A stretch of DNA of 64,000 nt. It comes from Chloroflexota bacterium (GTDB taxonomy: Bacteria; Chloroflexota; Anaerolineae; Anaerolineales; JBFLVL01). Positions within the stretch are counted from its first letter, which is position 1, and each line of letters starts with the position of its first letter. Where the stretch lies: assembly GCA_040758495.1 (NCBI GenBank), contig JBFLVL010000014.1:17161-81160 (forward strand), in the 5' to 3' direction. A program made the translations under genes and the position numbers. The notes beneath the pieces are model-generated. The model was not told the origin of the DNA. It saw nothing but the letters and a program-made list of their open reading frames with translations, and made no database searches. Below are positions 8,243-60,931 of the stretch, one piece after another.

Positions 8243-8250
8243 TCTAAAAA

Positions 8251-42238: not shown

Positions 42239-42367
42239 ACGTTATGGGGTCATATTGATATTCGGACAACAGCAAGGTATACTCGAGTAAGTAAGCGTAC
42301 GTTGTCTGAAGTGCGCAGCCCGTTGGATAGTCCCCCGCTAGCAGGTGGGGAGGGAGAGGAAGGGTAA
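42239..42367 (+). pseudogene. C-terminal remnant of a tyrosine recombinase with an integron-integrase-like ending
   Basis: 42242-42364 translates to LWGHIDIRTTARYTRVSKRTLSEVRSPLDSPP... (Box II GH..TT..YT.V with the catalytic Tyr). An in-frame TAA lies at 42236-38, and no upstream coding remainder exists. Confidence 0.55.
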
Positions 42368-42462
42368 AGAGATAAGGGTGATAGTGAGCAAGTGCAAACT
42401 ATCAGGTGTTATTGCGTCATGAGCACTATCGCTGTGTTGGGCGGCCTGAAATACAGAGTGGT

Positions 42463-43035
42463 ATGAAGATTACAGGAAAGCATGTTGTACTAAGAGATGA
42501 AAAGAAAGAAAACGATAGTGACGATTTCTTCCATTGGCGGAACCTGGGAGAGTGGCAATATTATGATGAACCCGATGAAACATTCGAGAGCATAAGTCGG
42601 GAAAAATATGAGCAGCAGAGAAAAGAACGCAATCAAAAAACAAAGCCACCGATTTTGAATAGTCATACTTGGCAAATTGATACCCTTAAAGGTCAACATG
42701 TCGGTTGGGTAAATTATTATCAGCTTGATGAGCAATTGGGACAAGCGTTTGTAGGAATATGTCTACCAGAGGAAGGAACTTGGAATAAAGGATATGGCAC
42801 AGAAGCCCTAAATCTTCTGATAAATTACTTATTTCGTGAGATAGGATTGAAGAAAGTCAAGACAGCAACTTGGACTGGAAATAAACGAATGGTACGCTGT
42901 GCTGAAAAGTGTGGCTTTGAGAAATATATTCTAATGCCACATCGAGTAGAACACTCTGTTCGAGGTGAGCCGTTAGAAAGGATAGAATTTACTCTTACCT
43001 GTTCGGAGTGGTTATCACGGAAGACGAGAGAATAG
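42463..43035 (+). CDS. GNAT family N-acetyltransferase (RimJ/RimL-like)
   Basis: Acetyl-CoA motif-A-like region WNKGYGTEAL. A GTTGGGC box at 42436-42442 lies 20 nt upstream of the ATG. Confidence 0.8.
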   Translation: MKITGKHVVLRDEKKENDSDDFFHWRNLGEWQYYDEPDETFESISREKYEQQRKERNQKTKPPILNSHTWQIDTLKGQHVGWVNYYQLDEQLGQAFVGICLPEEGTWNKGYGTEALNLLINYLFREIGLKKVKTATWTGNKRMVRCAEKCGFEKYILMPHRVEHSVRGEPLERIEFTLTCSEWLSRKTRE

Positions 43036-43077
43036 CAGAGCAAAATGAGACAGACAAAGTTCAAATGTGAAAAGGCC

Positions 43078-43202
43078 GCCCAACCACACATGCAGGCGAC
43101 CGGGCTGGCGCCCGAGGGTAAGCGGCGCGATTTTAGGCGATTGGTTACGAGCAAAGGATGTCCAGAGCTACAAACGCCCGGCGCCTGATGTAAACGTTAA
43201 TA
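43078..43202 (+). repeat. attC-like site 1
   Basis: GCCCAAC...GTTAATA. Arms are ACAT[G]CAGGCG[A]CCGGGC versus reverse-complement ACAT-CAGGCG-CCGGGC. Ends 4 nt before the next ATG. Confidence 0.75.
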
Positions 43203-43206
43203 AATT

Positions 43207-44277
43207 ATGACAGAAAATGTTATTGATCTTACCGGATTTACTTTGCTTGATGTGTACGGCCTTGAACACATTGATGTCTCAGGTAATTTTTCGGAAGAAA
43301 AATTGGCACAGTTATTCATTGACGAATGGATACCATATTATGAGTGTCATAAATGTAGTCGAGTAGATTATTGCAAATACCCTCAACCAGTTTCGCCTGG
43401 CTCATACCGCATGATGGATATCCAGTGTGGTGTTGTCGTTGCTGGAATAAAAAATTTTGTGCGTTCAATTTTCCCGTTACTGAAGGAATTAGACAAAGTT
43501 GCCCTTCAAGGGATTCTAGATGGTGCTCATTATCTGACAAGATTTCTCTTTGATACTGAAATAAAAATTGGAAGTGCCATGGATTCAGCCTACATTGACT
43601 ATCTTGAAGATTTTGCTCCAGCGTTTTTTGGGCGGATTGCACATCTGCGCGATCATTTGAATAATATGAGTTCAGCTTTTCAGCACGTTCCCATATTGCA
43701 AGCAAAGAGAGGGGTTTTGTTTGTACAAGGGGAATCGGAACAAGCATTTGTCGAAAGATTGAAATTGTCTAGATTGGCATGGTTCTTAAATGTATATGTT
43801 GACTCATACAGAGGGGACGGCAGTCGTCGTTTACCACGAATCGAAATGTTATTAGAGAGATTTAATTCTCAGGGCTATAAGATATTCATACAGGGTGATG
43901 CTGATGGTGGTGAATCATCCATTTTTACAAATTTGATACAACGTGGTCTTGTAGAAGTGGAAAACACTTTCACTTTTGAATATGATTTCGAAACAGCCGT
44001 TCCAGATAAGTTAGCCTATGATGCTCTTAGAGAAATGGAATTGCTTAGCGATGTTTCATTTGAACAATATTTGATTGGGGTTGGACAAAGAGATAAATCA
44101 TTAGCACCGAGGTTGTTTAGTGCATTCGGAATCGATATAAACTCGATAAAGATACAATTCGCGCAAACCGTGGCCGATATAATAAATTGGAGTCAATGGA
44201 CATGGTGGAATGACGATGAATTTACCGAATCGGAATTAGGAAAATTCTTATTTTTTATTCGGAGCGTCAATTATTAG
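43207..44277 (+). CDS. orphan protein with a C-terminal TOPRIM-like (OLD-nuclease-type) region
   Basis: The ORF fills the cassette. VLFVQGESE (aa 170-178) and IQGDADGGES (aa 228-237) resemble the TOPRIM E...DxD. The N-terminus is Cys-rich (CHKC..C..C). Confidence 0.55.
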   Translation: MTENVIDLTGFTLLDVYGLEHIDVSGNFSEEKLAQLFIDEWIPYYECHKCSRVDYCKYPQPVSPGSYRMMDIQCGVVVAGIKNFVRSIFPLLKELDKVALQGILDGAHYLTRFLFDTEIKIGSAMDSAYIDYLEDFAPAFFGRIAHLRDHLNNMSSAFQHVPILQAKRGVLFVQGESEQAFVERLKLSRLAWFLNVYVDSYRGDGSRRLPRIEMLLERFNSQGYKIFIQGDADGGESSIFTNLIQRGLVEVENTFTFEYDFETAVPDKLAYDALREMELLSDVSFEQYLIGVGQRDKSLAPRLFSAFGIDINSIKIQFAQTVADIINWSQWTWWNDDEFTESELGKFLFFIRSVNY

Positions 44278-44288
44278 CTTAGCATTGC

Positions 44289-44414
44289 GCCTAACCCCAA
44301 TTGCACGGGACTCGCCTTCGGCTCTGGTACGCGGCGCAAAAGATGCTAATTTAGGTTACAATTGAATTGGCCGACAATGCAAGAGTCGGCGAGCCCGTGA
44401 ATTACCCGTTGAAA
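44289..44414 (+). repeat. attC-like site 2
   Basis: GCCTAAC...GTTGAAA. Arms are AATT[G]CACGGG[A]CTCGCC versus AATT-CACGGG-CTCGCC. Confidence 0.75.
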
Positions 44415-44587
44415 CTGTCGAAAAAGTAAGAAAAGAGGTCGAAAATAGTGCCGCTCAAGCACAAAATTCAGTGTTCTCGCCATGAATAAGGTATTATTCG
44501 ACAGTCTCGTTGGGCGCAGACGGTAGAATTTGCGCTATAATGGCAATGCACAATCTCCAACAACATGCTTCGTGAAGAAGGTATCTT

Positions 44588-44863
44588 TTGAGCAAGATTG
44601 GGCAAATTCAAGACCTCGTTCGCAATGGCTTATATTACCTCACCGAACACGCTGACGATGAAGCCATCGCAGACGAATTTGATATCTATGATGTGGAGCA
44701 AGGCATTCTTACAGGGAAGATTCGGAGAACATGGACAAAGGAAGGCAAATACGAAGTAGTGGGACTGGCATTGGATGGCCGCCCTATTGGCATCGTTTGC
44801 CGTATTACCCAAACAGGCAAAGTGCGTGTGATTACAGTTTATGAAGACAGACTCAAGCAATGA
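44588..44863 (+). CDS. DUF4258-like putative toxin
   Basis: 91 aa with a TTG start. The C-terminus ...KVRVITVYEDR is typical of DUF4258. Paired with a YgiT-type zinc-finger gene. Confidence 0.6.
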   Translation: MSKIGQIQDLVRNGLYYLTEHADDEAIADEFDIYDVEQGILTGKIRRTWTKEGKYEVVGLALDGRPIGIVCRITQTGKVRVITVYEDRLKQ

Positions 44864-44872
44864 AAGGGAAAA

Positions 44873-45115
44873 ATGATGAGTTTTTGGAAAGGCGAAGCAT
44901 GTGAATATTGCGGCGGGCCCATTGTTGAGAAGCGTGTGACATTGCATCGTAAGGTACACGGGCAATATGTGCTGCTCGAAAATGTGCCAGCAGGTGTATG
45001 TACTCAATGTGGCACACGTTACTATGCGGCGAACGTGCTGAAGACAATCGAAGAAAGTCTACGTGGGCGTCGCCAAGCAGAGCGCGAGGTACTTGTGCCT
45101 GTGTATTCGCTGTAG
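44873..45115 (+). CDS. YgiT-type zinc-finger protein (MqsA-like putative antitoxin)
   Basis: CEYCGG...GVCTQCG ribbon, 80 aa. Confidence 0.7.
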   Translation: MMSFWKGEACEYCGGPIVEKRVTLHRKVHGQYVLLENVPAGVCTQCGTRYYAANVLKTIEESLRGRRQAEREVLVPVYSL

Positions 45116-45127
45116 CTTGTGGAGTGC

Positions 45128-45254
45128 GCCCAACACTGCATGCAGGCGACGGGGCTACCGCCTCCCCCCCAGCGAAGGCTCTGGTCGTTCCGGCAAGTCT
45201 TGCCCGCAAAGGGGTCTTTAGCATCCGCCCCGCGCCTGATGCTTGCCGTTGAAA
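45128..45254 (+). repeat. attC-like site 3
   Basis: GCCCAAC...GTTGAAA. Arms are GCAT[G]CAGGCG[A]CGGGGC versus GCAT-CAGGCG-CGGGGC. Confidence 0.8.
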
Positions 45255-45289
45255 CGCTCTTCTTTAATTGAAAATATTTGGGGTGGGGG

Positions 45290-45318
45290 TTGACGTGTAA
45301 TTAGGTATCATATACAAT
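45290..45318 (+). promoter_or_regulatory. sigma70-like promoter of the PIN/RHH cassette
   Basis: TTGACG (45290-95), a 17-nt spacer, then TACAAT (45313-18). The ATG at 45325 is 7 nt downstream, with no SD sequence. Confidence 0.4.
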
Positions 45319-45324
45319 ACCACC

Positions 45325-45750
45325 ATGCCTGTACACCAAATCGTTGTTGATACTAACGTATTCGTTACTGCTTTGCGTTCCCAGTTTGGCGCATCGTATA
45401 AACTTTTATCGCTTATTGATAAGGGCCTCTACGAATTGAATTTGTCGGTTCCGTTAGTTCTTGAATATGAAGAAGTTGCCAAAAGAATGATTGGCGAAAT
45501 CTCTTTGAGTGAAAGTGAAATTGATGACATCCTTGATTTTGTCATTAGCAGATCAAACCGCTGGCATATCTTTTATCTATGGCGACCACAACTCAAAGAT
45601 CCCAGCGATGATATGGTGTTGGAATTAGCGGTTACAGCTAGCTGCAATTACATCATCACACACAACCTCAATGATTTCAAAGGAAGTGAGAAATTCGGTA
45701 TTAAGGCAATCACACCAAAAGCGTTTTTAGAAATGGTAGGTGAACTATGA
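45325..45750 (+). CDS. PIN-domain toxin
   Basis: VVDTNVFV N-terminus, and an acidic DD segment (KDPSDDMVLELAV) with the ITHN segment. Confidence 0.8.
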   Translation: MPVHQIVVDTNVFVTALRSQFGASYKLLSLIDKGLYELNLSVPLVLEYEEVAKRMIGEISLSESEIDDILDFVISRSNRWHIFYLWRPQLKDPSDDMVLELAVTASCNYIITHNLNDFKGSEKFGIKAITPKAFLEMVGEL

Positions 45751-45983
45751 GCACATTAAGTCTAAGACTTCCTGAGTCTTTACACAAATCTGCTCGTGAG
45801 TTAGCAGAAAAAGAAAATATATCGATCAACCAACTAATCACTCTGGCATTGGCGGAGAAACTTGCTGCATTAGGTGCAGAAGATTATTTAGAAGCGCGTG
45901 CAAAACGAGGAAGCAAGACAAAGTTCCGCAAGGCAATGTCGAAAGTAGCGAAAGTTGAACCTCCAGATTATGATCGATTGTAA
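45747..45983 (+). CDS. ribbon-helix-helix antitoxin
   Basis: LSLRLPESLHKSARELAEKENISINQLITLALAEKL. ATGA overlap with the PIN gene. Confidence 0.7.
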   Translation: MSTLSLRLPESLHKSARELAEKENISINQLITLALAEKLAALGAEDYLEARAKRGSKTKFRKAMSKVAKVEPPDYDRL

Positions 45984-46014
45984 ATAGACAAAGGAGTTTT
46001 ACAATACAAAAGCG

Positions 46015-46144
46015 TGCCAACACAGCGTGCACCGGACTCATGGGATTCGTCCCGCTAAATTGAGTTGGTTCTGGCTTTTGGGTTTACCGCTATAGTAACT
46101 TTATCCAAGTCCCACCCACGAGCCGGTAACGCCAGCCGTTGAAA
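46015..46144 (+). repeat. attC-like site 4
   Basis: tGCCAAC...GTTGAAA. Arms are GCGT[G]CACCGG[A]CTCATGGG versus GCGT-TACCGG-CTCGTGGG. Confidence 0.7.
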
Positions 46145-46236
46145 CTGTCGAAAAAGTGTGAAAAGGGGCAGAAAATAGTGGCGATAATGCCCAAGGTTCT
46201 GTATCCTCTTCGTAAGAATGCAGTATAGAGGCATCG

Positions 46237-46503
46237 ATGGCTAAATACAAACCCTACCGTTATGACCAATTGGTCATGATCCCCATCTCACTCCAAAATC
46301 AGCTCGAACCCGGGACGCTGGAATACACCATCAACGCATTGGTGGAGAACCATCTCGATTTGTCGGTGTTCGAGGAGCGACATCGCCACAGATGTGTACA
46401 TCCTGTGTGGGCTGATCGTGCTGGCCATCGTGATTGCCGGTTTCATCGTCCGACGGAGCGGGGTAGAAAGTTCGAGGTCAGCCTCAAGGGCTTTCTAAAA
46501 TAA
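46237..46503 (+). pseudogene. N-terminal remnant of an IS1182-like (DUF772-type) transposase
   Basis: MAKYKPYRYDQLVMIPISLQNQLEPGTLEYTINALVENHLDLSVFEER matches the N-termini of this transposase type (from memory). Homology is lost after ~48 aa. Confidence 0.55.
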
Positions 46504-46529
46504 GTGAAGCGGAGGAGGTCAGGTCAGAA

Positions 46530-47363
46530 ATGTTTGAGTTGCCAGAGTTTGTAACTTTAGCCAAACAGATAAATGACACCCTGAAAGGAAAGACCATCCT
46601 AAGAGGGCGTCTGGGAAACAGCCCCCACAAATTCGTCTGGTACAACAGGAGCCATGAAGAGTTCGAGCAGTTGACAAAAGGGAAGACAGTCGAAAAAGCG
46701 TGGGCCAAAGGAAAATGGCTCTTCATCCCGCTTGAGCCCGGATATGTGCTGCTGCTAGGTGAATGTGGGGGCAAGGTGCTGTATCATCCTCCAGAGGCTG
46801 AGATTCCGAATAAGTATCATCTGTATATCTCATTCGAAGACGGCTCTTCCCTCACCGCCACCACCCAAATGTGGGGAGCCATGGAACTCTACGAAAAAGG
46901 AGAAGAGCAAAACCGACAGTATGTCAAAGATATGAAAACCACGCCGATAGAGTCCGGGTTCACCTTTGACTATCTCTGTTCCCTCATAGATGGTCTTGTG
47001 GAGGGAGAGAAGCGGAGCGTAAAGTCGTTGTTGACACAAGACCAAATCATACCAGGGCTGGGAAATGCAATTGCTCAAGATATTCTTTTCCAAGCCCGTC
47101 TGCACCCCAAACACCCAATATGCGAACTCACCATGGGGCAGAGGGGAGCATTGTACAACGCAATTTTGAACATCGTTGGAGAGGTCATAGAGAAGGGCGG
47201 CCGACATGACGAATATGACCTGTATAACAACCGAGGGAAATACATCCGCATTATGGACAAGAACGCGGTTGGTCGTCCCTGTCCCGAATGTGGGTGTGAA
47301 ATAGAGAAGATGCAGTATTTGGGAGGAACATGCTATTTGTGTCCAAATTGCCAGCAATGTTGA
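46530..47363 (+). CDS. Fpg/Nei-family DNA glycosylase-like protein with atypical N-terminus
   Basis: MFELPEF N-terminus (Phe where the catalytic Pro2 is expected), H2TH (IPGLGNAIAQDILFQARLHP) and a C-terminal CxxC..CxxC. Strong GGAGGAGG RBS. Confidence 0.75.
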   Translation: MFELPEFVTLAKQINDTLKGKTILRGRLGNSPHKFVWYNRSHEEFEQLTKGKTVEKAWAKGKWLFIPLEPGYVLLLGECGGKVLYHPPEAEIPNKYHLYISFEDGSSLTATTQMWGAMELYEKGEEQNRQYVKDMKTTPIESGFTFDYLCSLIDGLVEGEKRSVKSLLTQDQIIPGLGNAIAQDILFQARLHPKHPICELTMGQRGALYNAILNIVGEVIEKGGRHDEYDLYNNRGKYIRIMDKNAVGRPCPECGCEIEKMQYLGGTCYLCPNCQQC

Positions 47364-47534
47364 CAAGATTGATCATATAAAAGTAACGCCTGGGGGTAAA
47401 ATATTAATGTTTGAAGCTTTTATTGGATTGCACGAATCCATTGAAAATCAAACCTTTTCCATTTTCCCTGCATCACCTCAACTACACAACCATGAATACA
47501 ACCAGCAAGGAAGAACTTGCTTACAGAGGTCACG

Positions 47535-48470
47535 ATGAAAAGTCAAAAGATTATTTTCCCCCTACTGACCCTGCTCCTGGTAGCCCTGGCCTGCAATTTC
47601 CCCTCTTATGACGAGTGGTGTCCCAATCCTTTCAACCCCGTCTGTGCAGCCTTGGAGGATGACACCCCCTCGACGCAACCGCCTCCGGACACAGATGAAA
47701 TAGTTATAGGCGTAGACCAAAAATACGGATACCTGACCAACCTGTACGTAGAACCAGGGACAGGGTACGGCCCGTTCCGAGCCACCCTTCACTACGGCGA
47801 AGGGAAGGAGACCAGTTATGCCACCTGCGCCTATGCCAAAAAAGACGATCTGGCTTTCGTTCCCGTCATCATCGGTGTGCTTACCCTGAACCCGGGCAGC
47901 GGGCTTATGATGGGGTCGCAGACCATGGATTTCAACGAAAAACGACCAGCGCAGTACCTGGCTTATTGCACCAGCGGAGAGCAAAGGCTGGAACAGAGTT
48001 TTGCGGTGGTCTCTCCGTACGTTGGCCAATACGAATGTGAATCCTGCTTTTCCGAGTCCTGGGCAACGGATGTAGATATGGTGGCCGAGGGGCCCCGCTC
48101 AATGGGACGCAACCTGGTGAAAATCACGGTTGATGAGAACGGCAACGTCACCGCAGGGTACATTTTTTATGAGATTTATGGCACACCCCCGAACTATTGC
48201 ACCATCACCTACAATTCTTTCGAGTCCGGGAAAGTCACCGGGGCGGTCAACCACGACACGAAAGAGTTGATCGTTGACTTCCTCGATTGCAAAGCAGTCT
48301 ATGAACGTAGCGGCGGCAGCCAGTGCGATCCTCCTGAGGTAAGCACGGGCGGAGCAACTCGGTTTTTCTTCCAGTTCAATGAGCAGGGTGATCTGATGCT
48401 CTGCAAACCTTTCGAGACCGGACAGAGTTGTATAGAAAATCCAATTGCTGTGTTGTTGAAACGAAAGTAA
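47535..48470 (+). CDS. secreted/lipoprotein-like Cys-rich hypothetical protein
   Basis: Signal peptide MKSQKIIFPLLTLLLVALAC and many Cys. The stop overlaps the next ATG (TAATG). Confidence 0.5.
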   Translation: MKSQKIIFPLLTLLLVALACNFPSYDEWCPNPFNPVCAALEDDTPSTQPPPDTDEIVIGVDQKYGYLTNLYVEPGTGYGPFRATLHYGEGKETSYATCAYAKKDDLAFVPVIIGVLTLNPGSGLMMGSQTMDFNEKRPAQYLAYCTSGEQRLEQSFAVVSPYVGQYECESCFSESWATDVDMVAEGPRSMGRNLVKITVDENGNVTAGYIFYEIYGTPPNYCTITYNSFESGKVTGAVNHDTKELIVDFLDCKAVYERSGGSQCDPPEVSTGGATRFFFQFNEQGDLMLCKPFETGQSCIENPIAVLLKRK

Positions 48471-49366: not shown

Positions 49367-49379
49367 ACCAGCGGCCAAA

Positions 49380-51425: not shown

Positions 51426-51441
51426 TACGGTCAATGGGGCG

Positions 51442-52422: not shown

Positions 52423-52429
52423 AAGGGCA

Positions 52430-53483: not shown

Positions 53484-53486
53484 GGG

Positions 53487-54344: not shown

Positions 54345-54345
54345 T

Positions 54346-54552
54346 ATGGGTTACAAAGATGATAGATGGCTTGAAGCCCCTGGCTACTGTGTAGAATGTG
54401 GAAATCTAAGACCACTCAACCAGTCGTGTGTATGCCGCGAGTGCTGGTACGACCTCGAAATGCTAGGCATGGAGTGGGAAGAAGATGAGGATAGAAGTCG
54501 AATCTACTACCAGCGGGTGAGCACGCAATGTGAGTTCAACAAGCGCGCATAG
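54346..54552 (+). CDS. small Cys-rich (zinc-ribbon-like) protein
   Basis: 68 aa, CVECG...CVCRECW. Starts 1 nt after the nuclease gene. Confidence 0.35.
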   Translation: MGYKDDRWLEAPGYCVECGNLRPLNQSCVCRECWYDLEMLGMEWEEDEDRSRIYYQRVSTQCEFNKRA

Positions 54553-54726
54553 CTGCCCGTGAAATTGCCTTAATCAGGTTTCAATTTTTACTGCATTAGG
54601 AGGTAACAATTTCTTCAGCTCAACTACACATCAACCTGCTAAAACAATAATCAAACTGTAAATTTGTTCTTCAAATGGGTATGAAACATTATAATACGGG
54701 GAGATGTACCAAGTGGAGTTTATTCT

Positions 54727-56313
54727 ATGGTAGATGATAAAGAGTTACTAACAATACAAGAAGCCAGCGAATGGGCAAGTAATTATTTGGGCAGGGATGT
54801 ATCAACCTCCAATATTTCTTATTTGGTTCAGTATGGGCGCGTAAAAAGATACAGTAACCATGGTTTGACTCAAGTTGCTAAACAAGATTTGGTTCGGTAT
54901 TACAAATCGCATATTGGCGAGAGAGAACTAGAATGGAAAAATGAACTTGGTGAAGATCTGAATTGGGCTTTATCGTTTGATAATCTAGCAGAAAAAGAAA
55001 GAACGAAACACGTTCACCGATTGCACCCATATAAAGGCAAATTCATTCCCCAATTGGTCGAGTATTTTCTGGATAAGCACACCGATGAATTTAAAAATGA
55101 GATCTTTTTCAAACCAGGCGATATTGTACTTGACCCATTTTGTGGAAGTGGGACAACATTAGTGCAAGCAAATGAGCTTGGCATTCACGCAATTGGAGTG
55201 GATATCTCAGCATTTAACGCCATGATTAGCAATGTGAAAGTTGGTAAACATAATCTATATAAACTACATGACGAGATACGCAGAATTACCATCGCGCTTA
55301 AAGAATCCGTTGCTGGTAAAAAGCATGTCGCTTTTGAAACTGAACTTGCCGAGTCACTTACACAGTTCAATAACTTACATTTTCCCACTCCTGAGTTCAA
55401 ATATCGAGTGAGGCGGGGAGAAATTGACCAGGTACAATATGGCAGAGAAAAAGAGAGTGAATTCCGGAAGGTTTTCGACACGCTTGTGTTGAAATACAAC
55501 TTTACGATTCGTCAAGAAAAGGGAGAATCCTTTCTCGACCAATGGTTTATCAAGCCCGTCCGTGAAGAGATAGAGTTTGTGTTTGAACATATTCAGGGGA
55601 TACAAGATATTGATATCAAGAAAATTTTAGCAGTCATTCTGAGCCGAACCATGCGTTCGTGTAGAGCAACAACCCATGCGGACCTTGCCACTTTAGTAGA
55701 TCCCATTTTTTCAACATATTATTGCAGAAAGCATGGGAAAATTTGCAAACCCCTCTTTTCAATCTTGAGCTGGTGGGAAAGATACAGCAAAGATACCTTG
55801 CAAAGGTTAGCGGAATTTCATCGCTGTAGAACTGCCACTTTTCAACATTGTTTTACTGGTGACTCAAGAACGATTGACATTTTTTCGGAGTTACAACATA
55901 AAGACAAGCCCTTTGCTGATTTTGCAGTAAGACACAAGATAAATGGCATATTTTCCAGTCCTCCGTATGTAGGTCTAATTGATTATCATGAACAACATGC
56001 TTACGCTTATGATCTCTTCAAGTTTGAACGCAGAGACGAGCTCGAAATTGGTCCGCTCTATAAAGGACAAGGCAGAGAAGCCCAAGAGTCATACGTGGAG
56101 GGAATTGCAGAAGTGCTGAGAAACAGCCGTAATTTCCTCGTTGATGACTACAACATATTTCTCGTCGCGAACGATAAATATGATTTATACCCACAAATTG
56201 CTGAAAAAGCTGGCATGGACATTATCAATGAATTCAAGCGACCAGTTTTATGCCGCACAGAAAAGAACAAGATGCCATATTCCGAAAAGATTTTCTTACT
56301 GAAAGGCAAATAA
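54727..56313 (+). CDS. DNA methyltransferase (N4-C/N6-A type) with N-terminal HTH
   Basis: Motif I VLDPFCGSGTT, motif IV SSPPY. AT-rich. Confidence 0.8.
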   Translation: MVDDKELLTIQEASEWASNYLGRDVSTSNISYLVQYGRVKRYSNHGLTQVAKQDLVRYYKSHIGERELEWKNELGEDLNWALSFDNLAEKERTKHVHRLHPYKGKFIPQLVEYFLDKHTDEFKNEIFFKPGDIVLDPFCGSGTTLVQANELGIHAIGVDISAFNAMISNVKVGKHNLYKLHDEIRRITIALKESVAGKKHVAFETELAESLTQFNNLHFPTPEFKYRVRRGEIDQVQYGREKESEFRKVFDTLVLKYNFTIRQEKGESFLDQWFIKPVREEIEFVFEHIQGIQDIDIKKILAVILSRTMRSCRATTHADLATLVDPIFSTYYCRKHGKICKPLFSILSWWERYSKDTLQRLAEFHRCRTATFQHCFTGDSRTIDIFSELQHKDKPFADFAVRHKINGIFSSPPYVGLIDYHEQHAYAYDLFKFERRDELEIGPLYKGQGREAQESYVEGIAEVLRNSRNFLVDDYNIFLVANDKYDLYPQIAEKAGMDIINEFKRPVLCRTEKNKMPYSEKIFLLKGK

Positions 56314-56314
56314 T

Positions 56315-57106
56315 ATGGGGATGACAGAAGAGAAAAAACAACGTGTAAAAGAAACCCTCAAACAAAGCTTACGTAAGAAGTTTCAAAAATATCAACCCGA
56401 ATCAAAACACATGCCGTTTCACTATCGCTTGTTGGGTAAGGACAGAATGGCTTTATTTTCGTTCATCCATTCTATAAATACAACTTTCGGAACATCTGTC
56501 TACGAACCCGTTGCCCTGGAATTAGCCAGAGGAAGATATGCGATCGTAAAAACACAAGCAAAGCCCCACAATGAGATTAGTGTTGTAGCACAACAGGTCA
56601 TACAAAATATTATTGATGAACTTATAAGTGCTACTCGCGAACCCAAGAGGGAAACAGAATTTAACGAAATAAAGCATGTTTGCAGAGTTGCCCCAATTAA
56701 AAAGATAAAACCAAATTTAATAGATGTTTGGCTTGAAGATACAGATGGAAACAAGTACTTGATAGATATGAAAACGGTTAAACCAAATGTGGAGGGTTTC
56801 ATCGGTCACAAACGCAAGCTTCTCGAATGGATTGCCCAGGAATTGGTCAGGAATCCAGATTCGAGAGTACACTCGATGATTGGCATTCCATATAATCCTT
56901 ATGAACCGAAACCTTATAATAGGTGGACAATGAGGGGGATGTTTGACCTCACTAAAGAAGTATTGGTGGCAGATGAGTTGTGGGATTTTATTGGTGGTGA
57001 AGGAACAAATCAGGATTTGTTAGATTGCTTTGAAAAAGCCGGAATCGAGTTACGCCCAGAAATTGATGAACATTTCGCTAAGTTCGAAACAATCCATAAT
57101 ATTTGA
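56315..57106 (+). CDS. type II restriction endonuclease candidate (TdeIII-like by recollection)
   Basis: Starts 1 nt after the methylase stop. PD-(D/E)xK-like IDVWLED...YLIDMK. The N-terminal MPFHYRLLGKDR..SFIHS pattern resembles the RE_TdeIII family. Confidence 0.5.
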   Translation: MGMTEEKKQRVKETLKQSLRKKFQKYQPESKHMPFHYRLLGKDRMALFSFIHSINTTFGTSVYEPVALELARGRYAIVKTQAKPHNEISVVAQQVIQNIIDELISATREPKRETEFNEIKHVCRVAPIKKIKPNLIDVWLEDTDGNKYLIDMKTVKPNVEGFIGHKRKLLEWIAQELVRNPDSRVHSMIGIPYNPYEPKPYNRWTMRGMFDLTKEVLVADELWDFIGGEGTNQDLLDCFEKAGIELRPEIDEHFAKFETIHNI

Positions 57107-57146
57107 AAGTAAACTTTGTACTCACACTTCCCCACTCACCCCTGCA

Positions 57147-57284
57147 GAGCAACAGTTGCCAAGGAGGTGACCTACGGGGAAGCTCCTCTGCGTTCAGCGA
57201 TAATCACCGCGAAAAATCACGATTGGTTATGAGCAAAGTCGTACCAGGGTCAAACCCGGCCCGCCGGTGAAACAAACGTTGGGC
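57147..57284 (+). repeat. attC-like site 6 (degenerate arms)
   Basis: GAGCAAC...GTTGGGC. Carries the central module CCTACGGGGAAGCTCCTCTGCGTTCAGCGATAA shared with sites 7-9. Confidence 0.5.
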
Positions 57285-57361
57285 TGCAGTAAAATGTCTG
57301 GTGTAAGTTTATTGATAAATCCTTAATCATTCCATCTAGTGGACGAAGGAGAGAATCTCTT

Positions 57362-57916
57362 ATGAAAGCTACAGAAATTCTAATGGAAGAACACCGTGTG
57401 ATCGAACGAGTATTAGCTTCTATAGAAACAGCAGCGAGGCGCATTTCGGCAGGTCAAGAAGTTCCCAACGATTTCTTTCTCAGGACGGCTGATTTCATTA
57501 AAGGTTTTGCCGATGGTTGTCATCACAAAAAGGAAGAAGGTGTGCTTTTTGTGGCATTGGTGGAAAATGGTATGTCACCAGAGCAAGGACCAGTTGCTGT
57601 GATGTTAGCGGAACACGAAGAGGGGAGACGCCTAACGCGGGCAATGCAAGAAGGAGCTAAGCGCATGCAGGAAGGCGACCCTACTGCTATTGCACAGGTA
57701 TCTCAAAATGCGCTTGGTTATGTAACCCTGTTACGGCAACACATCCAGAAGGAAGATAACGTACTTTTTCCGATGGCCGACCAGATCATCCCTATTGAGC
57801 AACAAGACCAGTTAGCCGCAGCATTCGATCAGATTGAGCATGAGGAGACCGGCGAGGGTATTCACGAAAAGTATCTTGGGCTGGCCACAGAATTAGAGAA
57901 AGCGGTGGCAGCATAA
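57362..57916 (+). CDS. hemerythrin-domain protein
   Basis: MEEHRVIE, CHHKKEE, LAEHEEG and HIQKEDNVLFP (HHE cation-binding repeats). Confidence 0.8.
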   Translation: MKATEILMEEHRVIERVLASIETAARRISAGQEVPNDFFLRTADFIKGFADGCHHKKEEGVLFVALVENGMSPEQGPVAVMLAEHEEGRRLTRAMQEGAKRMQEGDPTAIAQVSQNALGYVTLLRQHIQKEDNVLFPMADQIIPIEQQDQLAAAFDQIEHEETGEGIHEKYLGLATELEKAVAA

Positions 57917-57943
57917 ACAAGCGGCAACACAAAACGCACGGCT

Positions 57944-58101
57944 GCCCAACACTGAGTGCACCGGAAGGGAGTAACGCCCCGAGGGTGCCCTACGGGGATG
58001 CTCCACTGCGTTACGCGATAAGCAGCGTGAATCGCCAATGTTGGCCTGGGTCGAGCGGCAGTCGGAGCCAAAACGCCCGGCTGCTGAGGTAACCGTTGGG
58101 C
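57944..58101 (+). repeat. attC-like site 7
   Basis: Perfect GCCCAAC...GTTGGGC boxes. The 5' arm GAGT[G]CACCGG[A]AGGG resembles site 4. About 120 bp is nearly identical to 58800-58918. Confidence 0.6.
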
Positions 58102-58114
58102 GGCTTAATACAAA

Positions 58115-58142
58115 TCACCCCTCGCACATCTGAGGGGTGATC
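58115..58142 (-). terminator. hairpin downstream of the inverted cassette genes
   Basis: TCACCCCTC-gcacatc-GAGGGGTGA, followed on the minus strand by a T-rich stretch. Confidence 0.45.
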
Positions 58143-58164
58143 GAGATAAAATGTAAAGTTGAAG

Positions 58165-58542
58165 CTATGCTGCTACAGGAATTGGTGGTTTCTCGATAAA
58201 AGTAATCGGCATTGTTTCGGCGAGATTCGGCGTATAAGCCAATACTTTCAATATTTGGTTCACTGGTGGATTTTTTATGATTTCAAGTACAGTTTCTTGC
58301 CATTCTGGTTCCAAGTCATTCAAACCGGTCAACGGAAAACTGCGAGGGCCTAAATTCGTTAGTTGAATCAGAACCGAAAAATCCATCAGTGTAAGACCAA
58401 TAGCGCGTTTTTCTGCTTTATTAAATCGCAGTAATATATTATCGTTTAGTTCGACGGCAGTGGTAGCTTTTTCACCGGGAGAGAATGAAATATATAAAAC
58501 GTCTACTTCTTTATCGTAAGAATAAACTGGTTCTTGGTTCAT
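58165..58542 (-). CDS. DUF2283-like protein (putative antitoxin-like partner)
   Basis: YDKEVDVLYISFSPGE...AIGLTLMDFS is the DUF2283 pattern. On the opposite strand to the array. Confidence 0.6.
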   Translation of the reverse strand: MNQEPVYSYDKEVDVLYISFSPGEKATTAVELNDNILLRFNKAEKRAIGLTLMDFSVLIQLTNLGPRSFPLTGLNDLEPEWQETVLEIIKNPPVNQILKVLAYTPNLAETMPITFIEKPPIPVAA

Positions 58543-58545
58543 TTC

Positions 58546-58773
58546 TTATCCTTTTAGCTGGATATGTTTGAAAAAGGCTGTAGCAACATAGTTATTGGGT
58601 ATAGTTCGCCCTTCTTCGTCAATATCGTAACCGAACAAGACAATTACAACAATGTGGTTCACGTCGTCTGGCAAATCATCAAAGGTATGATAATAACGAT
58701 ATTTTCGCGGGTTGAGAGGTTCTTGTCGTCTACGACCTTTTTCGTCGGGGTTTACCCCTGCGGGGCACCCCAC
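58546..58773 (-). CDS. small ORF upstream of the DUF2283 gene (start uncertain)
   Basis: Only a GTG at 58773 opens the frame, and it lies inside the attC-like repeat. 3 nt gap to the next gene. No motif. Confidence 0.3.
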   Translation of the reverse strand: MGCPAGVNPDEKGRRRQEPLNPRKYRYYHTFDDLPDDVNHIVVIVLFGYDIDEEGRTIPNNYVATAFFKHIQLKG

Positions 58774-58918
58774 TGCGTGGGACAGGCAGGTTGCCCTGTA
58801 GGTCCCCTACGGGGATGCTCCACTGCGTTCCGCGATAAGCGGAGCGAATTGCCAATGCTGGCCTGGGTCGAGCGGCAGTCGCAGCCAACCCGCCCGGCTG
58901 CTGAGGTAACCGTTGGGC
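58767..58918 (+). repeat. attC-like site 8 (5' box degenerate)
   Basis: The 3' two-thirds are nearly identical to site 7 and end in GTTGGGC (58912-18). The 5' box reads ACCCCAC. Confidence 0.45.
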
Positions 58919-59090
58919 GGCCCAAGCAATCAATCTTCTGTTACAATTGAAATTACGGGACGACCGTGCTGGCCTGCGGCGCAGGCTTCAAACCTGTGAT
59001 GCTACTTCGCCTGTAAAGCAAGTAGATGTGGGTTGGATTCCAAATCCCGTCTCTATATCTACCTACTTCAACACAGCAGGAAGGTGCGAT

Positions 59091-59447
59091 ATGTCCAACG
59101 AATCACCTCTCGCCAATGCAGTCATATTGATAACCAGAGAAGGAATGGGGTCTGCCGATGCGGCGCTACAGCACAAACTCCTTGATATCTACTTGAGGCT
59201 TCTGCTGGAGAGCGACTCATTGCCTGCCGCCATTTGTTTCTATACAGATGGGGTCAAGCTCGTGGTTGAAGGATCGCCGCTTCTGGAGCGACTCTCTCAA
59301 ATCGAGAAACGGGGTGTCCGTCTGATTGTCTGCTCGACGTGTCTCAACTACTTTGAGTTGACGGAAAGGGTATGGGTTGGTATTGTGGGAGGCATGCCAG
59401 ATATTATTGAAGCCCAGACCAGAGCTAGCAAAGTCATCACACTCTGA
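59091..59447 (+). CDS. DsrE/YedF-C-terminal-like sulfur/selenium relay domain protein
   Basis: VILITREGMG..., ICFYTDGVKLVVEGS and CSTCLNYFEL resemble the DsrE-like domain of YedF. AGGAAGG RBS. Confidence 0.65.
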   Translation: MSNESPLANAVILITREGMGSADAALQHKLLDIYLRLLLESDSLPAAICFYTDGVKLVVEGSPLLERLSQIEKRGVRLIVCSTCLNYFELTERVWVGIVGGMPDIIEAQTRASKVITL

Positions 59448-59507
59448 ATGAAAAGGTTATGCTGCGCGCCGATGGCAAATGCAGCCAGTCTGTAGAGAAC
59501 AGAGGCC

Positions 59508-59595
59508 GGCCAACCCACGCTGCGCCCGACCGGGCTGTCGCCCGAGGTCCCCTACGAGGATGCTCGACTGCGTTCCGCGATGCGCGGAGCGAAAA
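59508..59595 (+). repeat. truncated attC-like site 9 (5' arm + central module only)
   Basis: GGCCAAC CCACGCTGCGCCCGACCGGGC... resembles the site 1 arm, followed by CCCCTACGAGGATGCTCGACTGCGTTCCGCGAT. No 3' arm or GTTRRRY box. Confidence 0.4.
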
Positions 59596-59736
59596 ATGGC
59601 AAAAGGTGAAATATTTTGTCTTCGTGAGCATATAGGTATAATTGAAAAGTGGAGGTAGACGGCTCAATTTAAAGGGTTGTATAAACTAAGGGTTGGAGAT
59701 TATCGTGTCGTGTATACAGTCGAAAGTACCGAATAG
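59596..59736 (+). pseudogene. RelE/ParE-like toxin remnant
   Basis: 59659-59733 reads TAQFKGLYKLRVGDYRVVYTVESTE* (the RelE/ParE core is ..yklRvGdYRviY). The upstream part is only readable in other frames. Confidence 0.45.
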
Positions 59737-59847
59737 AAGTTTTTGGATTCGCACAGGCCGCGGTGGTGGGTGGACGCGGCTAAACCTAGCTGTTAGCCGG
59801 CTCGTCTGCTATCAAAGCCTTGTACGTCAAATAGTGGAAGACACCAC

Positions 59848-60543
59848 ATGCGTTACCACGTAGCAATTGAAGACATCGAACCCAACCACTGGGTAGCGTG
59901 GATACTTGACCTTCCCGCTTGCTTTAGTTCGGCACAGACGCAAGCCGACGCTGTCGCTTTGGTACCTGAGCATATATCGGCGTACTATTCATGGCTCTTA
60001 GGTCACGATAGCTCATTGCCAGTTGTCACCGAAGCAATTCAGGTGGAAGTGGAAATCATTGAGACCTTTCACTCGTTCCCGAGCATCCAAGACCCAGAGT
60101 ATGTCGTCAATGCTTTCTTTGAAGACGACCGCCGCGTGCCAAATTACTGGGATGTTGAACTGGCACTTCGGCTGTTACAGTGGACGCGCCAAGATCTACT
60201 GGCAGTCCTACAGTCCGTCACACAAGAGCAATTAAGTGAGCCAATTCCTGGCCAAGTGAGCCGCTCAATTGCTGGAATTATCAAACATATCGCAGGGGCA
60301 GAAAACTGGTACCTCGACCAATTGGATTTGGCACTTGACCAAGCACAACTACCTGACGACCCACTTGATATGCTCAAAGCCGTGCGCGCAAACATGCGGG
60401 CACAACTCGTGAAATTGATTGGTAATGGGCGTATAACCCAAAATTGTGGCGAGTTCTGGTCAGCACGCAAAGTAATTCGACGCACACTCTGGCACGAACG
60501 TGATCACACGCAGCACATAGCTCACCTGCTCGCATACTTGTGA
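59848..60543 (+). CDS. HicB-like N-terminal domain fused to a DinB-family domain
   Basis: MRYHVAIEDIEPNHWVAWILDLPACFS is UPF0150/HicB-like. The C-terminus IKHIAGAENWY...WHERDHTQHIAHL is a DinB_2-like His triad. Confidence 0.6.
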   Translation: MRYHVAIEDIEPNHWVAWILDLPACFSSAQTQADAVALVPEHISAYYSWLLGHDSSLPVVTEAIQVEVEIIETFHSFPSIQDPEYVVNAFFEDDRRVPNYWDVELALRLLQWTRQDLLAVLQSVTQEQLSEPIPGQVSRSIAGIIKHIAGAENWYLDQLDLALDQAQLPDDPLDMLKAVRANMRAQLVKLIGNGRITQNCGEFWSARKVIRRTLWHERDHTQHIAHLLAYL

Positions 60544-60576
60544 ACAACCGACGGACACAGACTGAGGATTCGCGTT

Positions 60577-60610
60577 TGCCAACACGCCATGCGGACCGTA
60601 CCACGTAGGC
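60577..60610 (+). repeat. orphan attC-like 5' arm
   Basis: TGCCAAC ACGCCAT[G]CGGACC... has the same layout as the 5' arms of sites 3-5. No matching 3' arm downstream. Confidence 0.3.
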
Positions 60611-60668
60611 GACTTTACGGGGCAGGTTCGAGGGGTCAAAAAAGGTATCCTTTGACCAAGAGAAGTTC

Positions 60669-60806
60669 ATGATGCGGTTTACTCCACGCCGCAGGGGAAG
60701 TGCATGGTCAGAAGGGAACAAGCCCCTCGCTGAAAAGATGCTTTATGAAGGAAAAATGACCGAAGCAGGTATGACAGTATTGCCGGATGAGATACTTGGG
60801 GTATGA
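60669..60806 (+). pseudogene. YdeI/OmpD-associated-family gene fragment
   Basis: MMRFTPRRRGSAWSEGNKPLAEKMLYEGKMTEAGM resembles the ftpRr.gS.WS..N...v..L..eG.M..aG core. Only 45 codons. Confidence 0.35.
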
Positions 60807-60931
60807 AACGAACAGGGGAGCAGCACTCCGAGGGCACTTCGCCCAACAGCGGGTTCAACGAAAGGACCGCGTTTGACAATGAGTTGAAAATCGTCCATAA
60901 TAACAAAGCTGCTTAGAGAAAGGAGACAAAG

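What the first reader, a model, noticed from the sequence alone, without database searches (positions are those of the whole stretch)
42239..60889. An 18.6-kb integron-type cassette array with no functional integrase (decayed sedentary integron / CALIN)
Seen, five well-formed sites: between the cysteine desulfurase gene (ends 42079) and a PD40 lipoprotein gene (starts 60932) the spacers are special. The sites are 43078-43202, 44289-44414, 45128-45254, 46015-46144 and 52430-52558.
- Each is a 125-130-bp imperfect palindrome.
- Each starts with an RYYYAAC-type box (GCCCAAC x3, GCCTAAC, tGCCAAC) 8-43 nt after a stop codon.
- Each ends with a GTTRRRY-type box (GTTAATA, GTTGAAA x3, GTTAGGT) 4-173 nt before the next ORF.

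Seen, further sites: three longer sites (57147-57284, 57944-58101, 58767-58918) end in GTTGGGC. Two half-sites follow (59508-, 60577-). A lone GTTGGGC sits 20 nt before the first ORF (42436-42442).

Seen, cassette content and composition: all sites have the same polarity. The ORFs between them are unrelated to each other and typical cassette cargo (GNAT, TA pairs, R-M, small orphans). Base composition jumps between blocks, from AT-rich at 42.4-47.4 and 52.6-57.1 kb to GC-rich at 48.7-51.4 kb.

Established: this is the defining architecture of integron gene cassettes and attC sites. Arrays without intI (CALINs) and arrays next to intI pseudogenes are known.

Inference: this is a sedentary chromosomal integron whose integrase has decayed, so the array is frozen and eroding.
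Basis: partly seen in the sequence, partly recalled or inferred. Interest (0 to 1): 0.85.

Follow-up and report, generated by a model that had tools for sequence, protein, structure and literature searches.

The report
Integron cassette array, integrase decayed
This stretch of an uncultured Anaerolineales (Chloroflexota) genome is a genuine integron gene-cassette array whose integrase gene is reduced to a 42-codon stump, which is a known kind of element found in a less-studied phylum.

Summary
The core observation holds. On the bottom strand this reads: AAC/GTT R box, unpaired spacer, 3 bp, extrahelical base, 6 bp, extrahelical T, 6 bp, variable loop. A structural descriptor finds only these five in 64 kb, against 0.05 expected by chance. 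Eleven of 15 stem pairs covary. A covariance model built only from these sites picks out bona fide class 1 attC sites as its top hits. Two cassettes recur in other metagenomic arrays that carry the same attC family.

Immediately upstream, on the same strand, lies a 42-codon C-terminal remnant of an integron-type tyrosine recombinase. No other recombinase is present in the window.

The three "longer sites" and the half-site at 59508 are sequence homologues of the attC family, but their arms no longer pair (9/15, the chance level). The 60577 half-site and the lone GTTGGGC are not significant on their own.

Verdict: a degraded chromosomal integron (a CALIN beside an intI pseudogene, in the "inverted" layout). 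It is a new member of a known kind. Whether it is truly frozen cannot be settled, because an integrase elsewhere in the genome could act in trans. Side finding: a sub-threshold tRNA-Sec-like element sits beside a YedF-like cassette gene.

The parts
42239..42367 (+). C-terminal remnant (42 codons) of an integron-type tyrosine recombinase gene (intI pseudogene). It is on the same strand as the cassettes. An in-frame TAA sits at 42236-42238, and nothing recognisable lies upstream.
   Evidence: tblastn with IntI1 residues 300-333 gives 56% identity, E 7e-4, and is the only hit below E=1 in 64 kb. The IntI1 query was verified as 100% identical to real IntI1. The translation is TLWGHIDIRTTARYTRVSKRTLSEVRSPLDSPP. 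The best NCBIfam match is TIGR02249 integron integrase, positions 284-314 of 315, E 5e-5, ranked above XerC/XerD.
42436..42442 (+). GTTGGGC core heptamer, 69 nt after the intI remnant's stop and 20 nt before the first cassette's ATG. It is a candidate attI/first-cassette junction.
   Evidence: Sequence. No complementary arm lies upstream. The assignment rests on position only and is inference.
42437..43196 (+). Cassette 1: GNAT acetyltransferase (42463-43035) plus attC1 (43078-43202).
   Evidence: Pfam PF13302, E 8e-20. attC.
43197..44408 (+). Cassette 2: 356-aa orphan (43207-44277) plus attC2 (44289-44414).
   Evidence: No Pfam, NCBIfam or PADLOC family. A 54%-identical homologue lies in another attC array (L087). 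Others lie in restriction-modification islands.
44409..45248 (+). Cassette 3: DUF4258 toxin-like ORF (44588-44863) plus a small zinc-finger/MqsA-like ORF (44873-45115) plus attC3 (45128-45254).
45249..46138 (+). Cassette 4: PIN toxin (45325-45750) plus HicB/CopG-like antitoxin (45747-45983) plus attC4 (46015-46144).
46139..52552 (+). Compound block 5 (6.4 kb, six ORFs, no internal attC). It holds an 88-aa ORF, Fpg/Nei glycosylase, a 317-aa orphan, GH114, PD40-GH114 and PD40. It ends with attC5 (52430-52558).
   Evidence: No further attC by covariance model, nhmmer or descriptor. G+C rises to 0.64.
52553..57278 (+). Block 6 (4.7 kb): two Type II restriction-modification modules. The first is a methyltransferase plus a PLD/DpnI_C nuclease, the second a methyltransferase plus a TdeIII-type nuclease. 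It ends in decayed site B1 (57147-57284), which keeps only the loop and 3' arm.
   Evidence: B1.
57279..58095 (+). Block 7: hemerythrin-domain protein (57362-57916) plus decayed site B2 (57944-58101). B2 has both R boxes but non-complementary arms.
58096..58912 (.). Block 8: DUF2283 ORF on the minus strand (58165-58542) plus decayed site B3 (58767-58918). B3's loop and 3' arm are 90% identical to B2.
58913..59600 (+). Block 9: tRNA-Sec-like element (58955-59050), a DsrE/YedF-like gene (59091-59447), and the attC 5' half-site B4 (59508-59600).
   Evidence: Rfam RF01852, 31.8 bits, below the gathering score of 47. TIGR03527 YedF, E 6e-29. 85% nucleotide identity to a cassette in L102.
59659..59737 (+). 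3' fragment of a ParE/RelE toxin gene fused to the broken site B4. It is a deletion scar.
   Evidence: Translation AQFKGLYKLRVGDYRVVYTVESTE*. PF05016 positions 54-73 of 89, E 5e-4.
59848..60543 (+). HicB-like/DinB-domain ORF. It is followed by an attC-like 5' box at 60577 that is not statistically supported. The right end of the array is undefined.

Best explanation
The interval from about 42.24 to about 59.7 kb (possibly to 60.6 kb) is a chromosomal integron of an Anaerolineales bacterium that has lost its integrase.

What is shown.
- Five cassettes or cassette blocks next to the former integrase end in structurally intact attC sites.
- On the bottom strand these would fold into the hairpin that IntI recognises and cleaves in the AAC triplet.
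- The integrase gene lay on the same strand as the cassettes (the 'inverted' layout). Only its last 42 codons remain.
- Further from the integrase, four attC-derived sites have lost an arm or carry arms that no longer pair. One of them is fused to a toxin gene fragment.

What is inferred.
- Without a cis integrase the array can no longer capture or shuffle cassettes by itself, so it behaves as a fixed block of accessory genes (acetyltransferase, toxin-antitoxin pairs, two restriction-modification systems, redox and selenium-related genes).
- The broken sites arose by deletions. They may also reflect homologous recombination between the conserved central cores of different attC sites, which would join non-matching arms.
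- The intact-proximal, decayed-distal gradient reflects cassette age.
For: attC structure.
- Common fold of the bottom strands.
- 98.9% of cells are paired, 11 of 15 stem pairs show compensatory changes, 0/500 shuffles reach this, and slid controls give 29-40%.
- The same holds for 10 sites from three contigs.
- The extrahelical bases are 7 positions apart, as in attCaadA7 G16/T23 (PMC5027507).

Specificity.
- The descriptor hits 5 sites against 0.05 expected.
- There are no other hits by the covariance model or nhmmer in the window, nor in 37 relatives' loci.

Cross-validation.
- Model R1, built only from these sites, ranks the class 1 attC sites of blaVIM-2, aac(6')-Ib (twice) and aac(6')-29a as its top four hits in 51 kb, with E 3e-4 to 0.03 and correct strand.
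- The descriptor also recovers the aadA2, aadB, aac(6')-Ib and aac(6')-29a attC sites.

Mobility of the cargo.
- Cassette 2 has a homologue inside another array with three R1 hits (L087).
- The DsrE cassette is 85% identical to one in L102. That cassette is flanked by attC sites scoring 58-62 bits, one of them 77% identical to attC1.

Integrase stump.

Decay.

Known precedent: integrons occur in Chloroflexi, CALINs lie beside intI pseudogenes, and an inverted-integrase group exists (PMC4889954).
Against: - IntegronFinder's own attC model and IntI_Cterm profile could not be run.
- My reciprocal model from class 1 attC sites (R2) found nothing in the window. This is uninformative, because R2 cannot span even the 112-nt aac(6')-29a attC it was trained on.
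- The integrase remnant is short, with E about 1e-4 to 1e-3. It lacks the IntI-specific insertion domain, so its IntI identity rests on the C-terminal tail motif and on its position.
- No attI is known for this lineage.
- attC4 and attC5 are 6.3 kb apart, beyond IntegronFinder's 4-kb clustering default.
- The 6.4-kb and 4.7-kb blocks are unusually large for cassettes.
- There is no synteny on the right flank in relatives, so the ancestral state and the right boundary are unknown.
- The five intact sites show almost no decay, which fits recent integrase loss or continued use in trans better than long neutral erosion.
Confidence: 0.85

Rival explanations
1. The array is a CALIN that is still recombinationally active. 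An intact integron integrase encoded elsewhere in the genome excises and reinserts the five proximal cassettes in trans, so the array is not frozen.
For: The five proximal attC sites keep 72 of 75 Watson-Crick pairs plus both extrahelical bases. Orthologous sites in L102 and L087 differ by compensatory changes, so structure was under selection until recently. Cury et al. report that half of CALINs sit in replicons that also encode IntI.
Against: No second recombinase is present in the 64 kb. The rest of the genome is not available. Distal sites are clearly dead. A single recent deletion of intI explains the intact sites equally well.
Confidence: 0.25
2. The sites are a family of REP/MITE-like intergenic palindromes or terminator hairpins unrelated to integrons, and their clustering here is incidental.
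For: They are intergenic imperfect palindromes of uniform length that share sequence. The descriptor gives occasional hits in unrelated DNA, 6 in 1.22 Mb. One of these, in L035, overlaps a terminator and the start of a gene.
Against: There is no copy in the other 45 kb of the window or in 606 kb of relatives. All five share strand and register with ORF ends. They carry the AAC/GTT boxes, unpaired spacer and two bulged bases at the spacing of true attC sites. The model built from them finds real attC sites. An integron-integrase stump is adjacent. Terminator-like sites are at chance level.
Confidence: 0.02
3. Only the left part (42.2-46.1 kb, four cassettes) is an integron array. The G+C-rich glycoside hydrolase/PD40 block and everything to its right is ordinary chromosome or other islands into which single attC-bearing fragments were inserted at secondary sites.
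For: There is a gap of 6.3 kb without attC, and G+C of 0.58-0.64 like the flanking core genes. A PD40 protein also lies on the right flank (29% identity). The DsrE/YedF-like gene is a conserved chromosomal gene in many Anaerolineales.
Against: attC5 sits directly after the PD40 ORF in the same polarity and register. Four more attC-family remnants follow at cassette-like spacing, all in the same orientation. The DsrE gene is demonstrably a cassette in L102.
Confidence: 0.1

Closest known systems
CALIN elements next to intI pseudogenes (Cury et al. 2016, PMC4889954)
   Same: [quoted passage not shown]
   Different: The remnant here covers far less than 50% of the IntI profile, so it would not have passed that study's pseudogene filter. 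The host is an uncultured Anaerolineales bacterium.
Inverted-integrase chromosomal integrons (Treponema denticola type)
   Same: The integrase gene is on the same strand as the attC sites and cassettes, with its 3' end facing the first cassette (for the group's description).
   Different: The integrase is not intact here, so neither its phylogenetic placement in that (paraphyletic) group nor its attI could be tested.
Sedentary chromosomal integrons of Vibrio and Xanthomonas
   Same: A lineage-specific attC family of uniform length. There are toxin-antitoxin cassettes, including one on the opposite strand, and defence (restriction-modification) cassettes. The location is chromosomal, beside core genes.
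   Different: Only 5 intact plus 4 decayed sites, against tens to hundreds. attC identity is moderate (mean column identity 64%) rather than above 80%. There is no integrase, and there are two multi-gene blocks of 4.7 and 6.4 kb.
attC sites of class 1 mobile integrons (aadA2, aadB, aac(6')-Ib, blaVIM-2, aac(6')-29a)
   Same: Identical arm geometry: 7-nt R box, 4-6-nt unpaired spacer, 3 bp, bulge, 6 bp, bulged T, further stem. They are mutually recognisable by the descriptor and by model R1.
   Different: The sites here are twice as long (125-130 against 60-112 nt). The first bulged base is C in most of them rather than the usual G (blaVIM-2 also has C).

Membership tests
Integron attC recombination site | R''/R' boxes: RYYYAAC at the 5' end and GTTRRRY at the 3' end of the top strand, with the invariant AAC/GTT triplets pairing | tested here: met
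   All five sites. AAC/GTT is invariant in 5/5 here and 10/10 with relatives.
Integron attC recombination site | The bottom strand folds into an imperfect hairpin (L box plus stem) whose pairing is conserved through compensatory change rather than sequence | tested here: met
   98.9% of cells paired, 11/15 pairs compensatory, 0/500 shuffles, slid controls 29-40%.
Integron attC recombination site | Extrahelical bases on the R''-L'' arm only, plus an unpaired central spacer between the R and L boxes | tested here: met
   Two bulges (C or a mismatch pair, then T) lie 7 positions apart on the 3' arm of the bottom strand in all five sites. The spacers are 5-6 and 4-5 nt. The same spacing holds for attCaadA7 G16/T23.
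Integron attC recombination site | Variable terminal structure, with total length in the known range (about 57-141 nt) | tested here: met
   125-130 nt, with loops unalignable between sites.
Integron attC recombination site | Significant hit to IntegronFinder's attC covariance model | not testable with these tools
   The model is not available. Two substitutes were positive: R1 finds true attC sites, and a descriptor derived from class 1 attC geometry finds exactly these five. The substitute model R2 was negative but shown to be length-limited.
Integron attC recombination site | Recombined by an integron integrase as single-stranded bottom strand | not testable with these tools
   Needs a recombination assay.
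Integron attC recombination site (the three 'longer sites' B1-B3) | Complementary arms | tested here: not met
   Best 9/15 pairs in any register, equal to the shuffled expectation. They are homologues of attC by sequence only.
Complete integron | Intact intI with the IntI-specific additional domain, adjacent to the array | tested here: not met
   Only 42 C-terminal codons remain, and there is no other tyrosine recombinase in 64 kb.
Complete integron | attI site and Pc promoter | tested here: inconclusive
   A GTTGGGC core is at 42436 and a promoter-like site at 42255-42283, but promoter-like sites are at chance frequency and attI is unknown for this lineage.
CALIN (cluster of attC sites lacking an integron integrase) | At least two attC sites with no functional intI nearby | tested here: met
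   Five attC sites. Four lie within 3.1 kb and the fifth 6.3 kb further on.
Sedentary chromosomal integron (criteria of Cury et al. 2016) | More than 19 attC sites, or presence in all genomes of the species | tested here: not met
   Five intact plus four decayed sites. Species-wide presence is not testable, and no close relative carries it at this locus.
REP/MITE-type dispersed palindromes | Many copies dispersed between unrelated genes across the genome | tested here: not met
   Zero copies outside 43.0-59.6 kb in the window and zero in 606 kb of relatives. The rest of the genome was not seen.
tRNA-Sec (side observation at 58955-59050) | Rfam RF01852 gathering score, with an 8/5 or 9/4 acceptor/T-stem geometry | tested here: not met
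   31.8 bits against 47. The acceptor has 6 bp, the T stem 3 of 4 bp, and the T loop is UUGGAUU. ARAGORN is negative even when relaxed.

The most novel reading that the evidence does not exclude
Block 9 may be a young cassette caught close to its birth.
- It carries a tRNA-Sec-like gene directly upstream of a YedF/DsrE-like selenium-metabolism gene.
- That protein is 76-91% identical (76-85% at nucleotide level where compared) to copies in many Anaerolineales, some of them in non-cassette chromosomal settings.
- The same gene is a bona fide attC cassette in a second array (L102).
- It is also one unit of a different, integrase-less tandem insertion array that splits comM in other metagenomic contigs (L094-L097).

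If so, this gene family would let one compare pre-cassette, integron-cassette and comM-cassette states of a single gene. That bears on the unsolved question of how integron cassettes and their attC sites are made.
Probability: 0.1. Interest if true: 0.6.

Novelty: new member of a known kind. Interest (0 to 1): 0.3.

Why it matters
It adds a documented integron cassette array with a lineage-specific, roughly 127-nt attC family to Anaerolineales, a phylum in which integrons are known but little described. It also shows one array holding both pristine and visibly broken attC sites beside an integrase stump, which gives a concrete picture of how CALINs arise.

The cargo includes two restriction-modification systems, three or four toxin-antitoxin modules and an orphan that elsewhere sits in defence islands. 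This fits the view of chromosomal integrons as stores of defence genes.

None of this changes what is known about how integrons work.

Tried and rejected
1. Reciprocal covariance model R2 was built from five class 1 attC sites with trimmed loops. One C was accidentally dropped from the aac(6')-Ib row. It gave no hit in the window. I rejected this as a test because R2 also cannot span the 112-nt aac(6')-29a attC it was built from. A full-length alignment of class 1 sites (A5) misaligned the inner stems and arr-3, so no third model was built.
2. Exact look-ups of four window-encoded proteins in the contig index found nothing (three window ORFs; P0001, the collection copy of the cassette-2 orphan). 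The source is only visible as an NCBI MAG protein on an 81,957-bp contig.
3. A metagenome scan for the conserved core of the long sites gave 0 hits.
4. A protein search with the integrase stump gave no candidates.
5. Synteny: TatD-PGM-iscS is conserved on the left in Anaerolineales, but nothing on the right is. The ancestral empty site could not be reconstructed.
6. The equal 817-bp length of blocks 7 and 8 looked like a duplication, but only the last ~130 nt are alike, so it is coincidence.
7. The PD40 genes inside and outside the array are not recent paralogues (29% identity).
8. A descriptor hit right after iscS in L035 is a chance match overlapping a terminator and a gene start.
9. The 49-nt GCCCAAC...GTTGAAA element at 60841-60889 is not significant (E 2.2). 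It overlaps a strong promoter-like site for the PD40 gene.
10. Promoter and terminator scans across the array are at chance level.

Full report
**Context.** The window comes from an uncultured Anaerolineales (Chloroflexota) bacterium.
- The cysteine desulfurase at 40928-42079 is at most 72% identical to those of Anaerolineales MAGs. The TatD-phosphoglucomutase-IscS gene order to its left is conserved in those genomes.
- One cassette protein is 100% identical to an NCBI entry from a 'Chloroflexota bacterium' MAG contig of 81,957 bp.
- Nothing to the right of iscS is syntenic in relatives.

**The five well-formed sites.**
- Read as the bottom strand, each folds into the same structure: RYYYAAC, 5-6 unpaired nt, 3 bp (a fourth pair forms in some sites), one bulged base, 6 bp, a bulged T, at least 6 bp, a 60-75-nt variable loop, then the complementary arm, 4-5 unpaired nt and GTTRRRY.
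- The first bulged base is C in three sites and a C-containing mismatch in two.
- On the MAFFT alignment, 98.9% of cells pair and 11 of the 15 stem pairs show changes on both sides. None of 500 column shuffles reaches this, and sliding the partner by 1-3 columns drops pairing to 29-40%.
- The two bulges are 7 positions apart, as G16 and T23 are in attCaadA7. R boxes, an unpaired central spacer, extrahelical bases on one arm and a variable terminal structure are precisely the described attC anatomy (PMC5027507).

**Chance and dispersal.** I encoded that geometry as a pattern: AAC, 3-7 nt, 3+6+6 bp with at least 13 Watson-Crick pairs, bulges of 1 and 1-2 nt, GTT.
- It hits the five sites and nothing else on either strand of the 64 kb.
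- It hits 0.05 times per dinucleotide-preserving shuffle and 6 times in 1.22 Mb of unrelated loci. The one of those I inspected was a terminator and gene-start artefact.
- A covariance model of the five sites (R1) with filters off finds no sixth copy in the window. It finds none in 606 kb around iscS in 37 relatives.
- An nhmmer profile of all nine attC-like sequences finds nothing outside 43.0-59.6 kb.

**Are they the same thing as real attC sites?** IntegronFinder's model is not available, so I tested in both directions.
- Forward test. R1 knows only the Anaerolineales sites. I ran it on 51 kb from three class 1 integron plasmids fetched with IntI1. Its top four hits are the attC sites of blaVIM-2, aac(6')-Ib (twice) and aac(6')-29a, on the correct strand, at E 3e-4 to 0.03. 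Nothing else scores below E=1.
- Reverse test. The descriptor, whose geometry is that of class 1 attC sites, recovers the aadA2, aadB, aac(6')-Ib and aac(6')-29a sites with no false hit in those loci.
- A small model built from five class 1 sites with trimmed loops (R2) found nothing in the window. It also fails to span the 112-nt aac(6')-29a site that it was built from. That negative says nothing about 125-130-nt sites.

**Related arrays.**
- The 356-aa orphan of cassette 2 has a 54%-identical homologue at the end of a 109-kb metagenomic contig (L087). There it lies in a run of same-strand, unrelated small genes separated by three R1 hits of 129-160 nt.
- The DsrE/YedF-like gene of block 9 is 85% identical at DNA level (59017-59536) to a gene in a 6-kb contig (L102). 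In L102 it lies between attC sites that score 62 and 58 bits with R1. One of these is 77% identical to attC1, and a third, weaker site follows the gene.
- Ten sites from the three contigs keep 98.9% pairing with 11/15 compensatory pairs. That alignment is fitted to the model.
- This is therefore a lineage-specific attC family whose cassettes move between arrays.

**The integrase.**
- tblastn with IntI1 gives one hit below E=1 in the whole window: 42242-42340, plus strand, residues 300-333, 56% identity, E 7e-4. My recalled IntI1 sequence proved 100% identical to real IntI1. XerC gives no hit below E=0.7.
- The frame reads TLWGHIDIRTTARYTRVSKRTLSEVRSPLDSPP...*. A TAA lies immediately upstream, and nothing recognisable lies before it.
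- The stump keeps the LLGH...TT..YT.V motif, and RSPLD follows eight residues later, exactly as in IntI1.
- Its best NCBIfam match is TIGR02249 integron integrase, positions 284-314 of 315, E 5e-5, ranked ahead of XerC/XerD.
- The stump is on the same strand as the cassettes. Its stop lies 69 nt before a GTTGGGC heptamer and 96 nt before the first cassette's ATG.
- This is the 'inverted integron-integrase' layout known from Treponema and others (PMC4889954).
- The evidence is short, and the IntI-specific insertion domain is gone. I therefore rate 'IntI-derived' as likely rather than proven.

**The distal sites.**
- B1-B3 and B4 align with attC1 and share a 59-nt core.
- B1 lacks the 5' arm. 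B2 has a 5' arm like attC4 and a 3' arm like attC1. B3 has a partly deleted 5' arm. B4 lacks everything after the core.
- In no register do the arms of B1-B3 exceed 9/15 pairs, which is the shuffled expectation.
- B4 is followed by the last 24 codons of a ParE/RelE toxin gene, which marks a deletion scar. L102 shows what the full B4 site looked like.
- A chimeric site such as B2 is what homologous recombination between the shared cores of two different attC sites would produce. This is inference.
- The 60577 'half-site' and the 60841-60889 mini-palindrome are not above chance.

**Cargo.**
- GNAT acetyltransferase, only weakly AAC(6')-like and far below cut-offs.
- The 356-aa orphan, whose other homologues sit in restriction-modification and recombinase islands.
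- DUF4258 with a zinc-finger partner.
- PIN with a HicB/CopG-like partner.
- A 6.4-kb block with Fpg/Nei, GH114 and PD40 proteins.
- A 4.7-kb block with two Type II restriction-modification modules.
- A hemerythrin-domain protein.
- A minus-strand DUF2283 ORF.
- The YedF-like gene.
- A HicB-like/DinB ORF.

**How it works, and how sure.**
- Shown: attC anatomy, clustering, polarity, the integrase stump, decayed distal sites, and mobility of two cassettes between arrays.
- Inferred: the integrase was lost by deletion. The array can no longer rearrange on its own. Distal sites are older and have decayed.
- Not settled: whether another IntI in the genome still services the five intact sites. Their near-perfect pairing is compatible with that or with a recent loss.

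**Comparison with the known.**
- Integrons in Chloroflexi, CALINs, CALINs beside intI pseudogenes (15 of 279) and inverted integrases are all described (PMC4889954). Toxin-antitoxin and defence cassettes in chromosomal integrons are described too (titles listed).
- This is a new member of a known kind.
- IntegronFinder with default 4-kb clustering would probably report a four-site CALIN plus a lone attC.

**Side observations.**
- An Rfam scan at relaxed threshold found a tRNA-Sec-like element at 58955-59050 (31.8 bits against a gathering score of 47; E 0.007 over 19 kb).
- It has a 6-bp D stem with a 4-nt loop, a 6-bp anticodon stem, a CUUCAAA loop and a long variable arm. Its acceptor stem is only 6 bp and its T arm is defective. 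ARAGORN does not call it.
- It sits 40 nt upstream of a gene matching the C-terminal DsrE-like half of the selenium-metabolism protein YedF (TIGR03527, E 6e-29). That link makes chance less likely. L102 keeps only its 3' part.
- The same gene is widespread in Anaerolineales at 76-91% protein identity, and the contexts I looked at include non-cassette ones.
- In L094-L097 it is the first of three small integrase-less units, bounded by 56-81-nt direct repeats, inserted in tandem inside comM.

Noticed in passing
window 58955-59050 (+), with 59091-59447: A sub-threshold tRNA-Sec-like element (RF01852, 31.8 bits against 47) with anticodon loop CUUCAAA, a 6-bp D stem, a 6-bp anticodon stem and a long variable arm. 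Its acceptor stem is only 6 bp and its T arm is defective. It lies 40 nt upstream of a YedF/DsrE-like selenium-metabolism gene inside a cassette. It could be a decayed selC or an odd tRNA. L102 keeps only its 3' part.
   Followed up: partly
L094 4961-9504 (also L095-L097): A comM/yifB gene is split after its GAMNP codons by 3.1 kb made of three tandem, integrase-less units. The units carry the DsrE-like gene, a 125-aa ORF, and a 125-aa ORF plus HisKA_7TM. Each is bounded by a 56-81-nt direct repeat resembling the target. No attC sites are present. It looks like a different kind of small-cassette array that carries the same gene as the integron cassette.
   Followed up: partly
window 44406-44478 and 46136-46208: The first ~70 nt of cassettes 3 and 5, starting at the GTTGAAA crossover, are 79% identical although the cassettes are otherwise unrelated. 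This may be a shared leader or promoter-like segment. A third short copy is at 46686-46702.
   Followed up: no
window 43207-44277; L090, L092, L093: The 356-aa orphan of cassette 2 has no family in Pfam, NCBIfam or PADLOC. Its homologues outside arrays lie next to Type I/II restriction-modification genes and tyrosine recombinases, which suggests an undescribed defence-island gene.
   Followed up: partly
L092 5710-6822: A 370-aa tyrosine recombinase that matches IntI1 better than XerC (E 5e-39 against 1e-23) and ends in ...YTHI...VMSPLD. It is on the same strand as the small genes downstream. Neither R1 nor the descriptor found attC sites there.
   Followed up: no
window 57285-58101 and 58102-58918: Two consecutive cassette blocks are each exactly 817 bp long, yet they share only their last ~130 nt (90% identity). 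This is judged coincidental.
   Followed up: yes
window 7864-8243 (+): A tmRNA gene (Rfam 185 bits; ARAGORN tag peptide ANRTNYAALPLAA).
   Followed up: no
window 60841-60901: A 49-nt GCCCAAC...GTTGAAA mini-palindrome (not significant) overlaps the best promoter-like site in the region (TTGACA-17-CATAAT), 31 nt upstream of the PD40 lipoprotein gene.
   Followed up: partly
window 34056-34991: A low-G+C (0.43) kilobase encodes a ClpP-like SDH-type serine protease among otherwise 0.5-0.58 G+C core genes.
   Followed up: no
L102 1-1437 (-): A 479-aa transposase-like ORF abuts the related cassette array.
   Followed up: no
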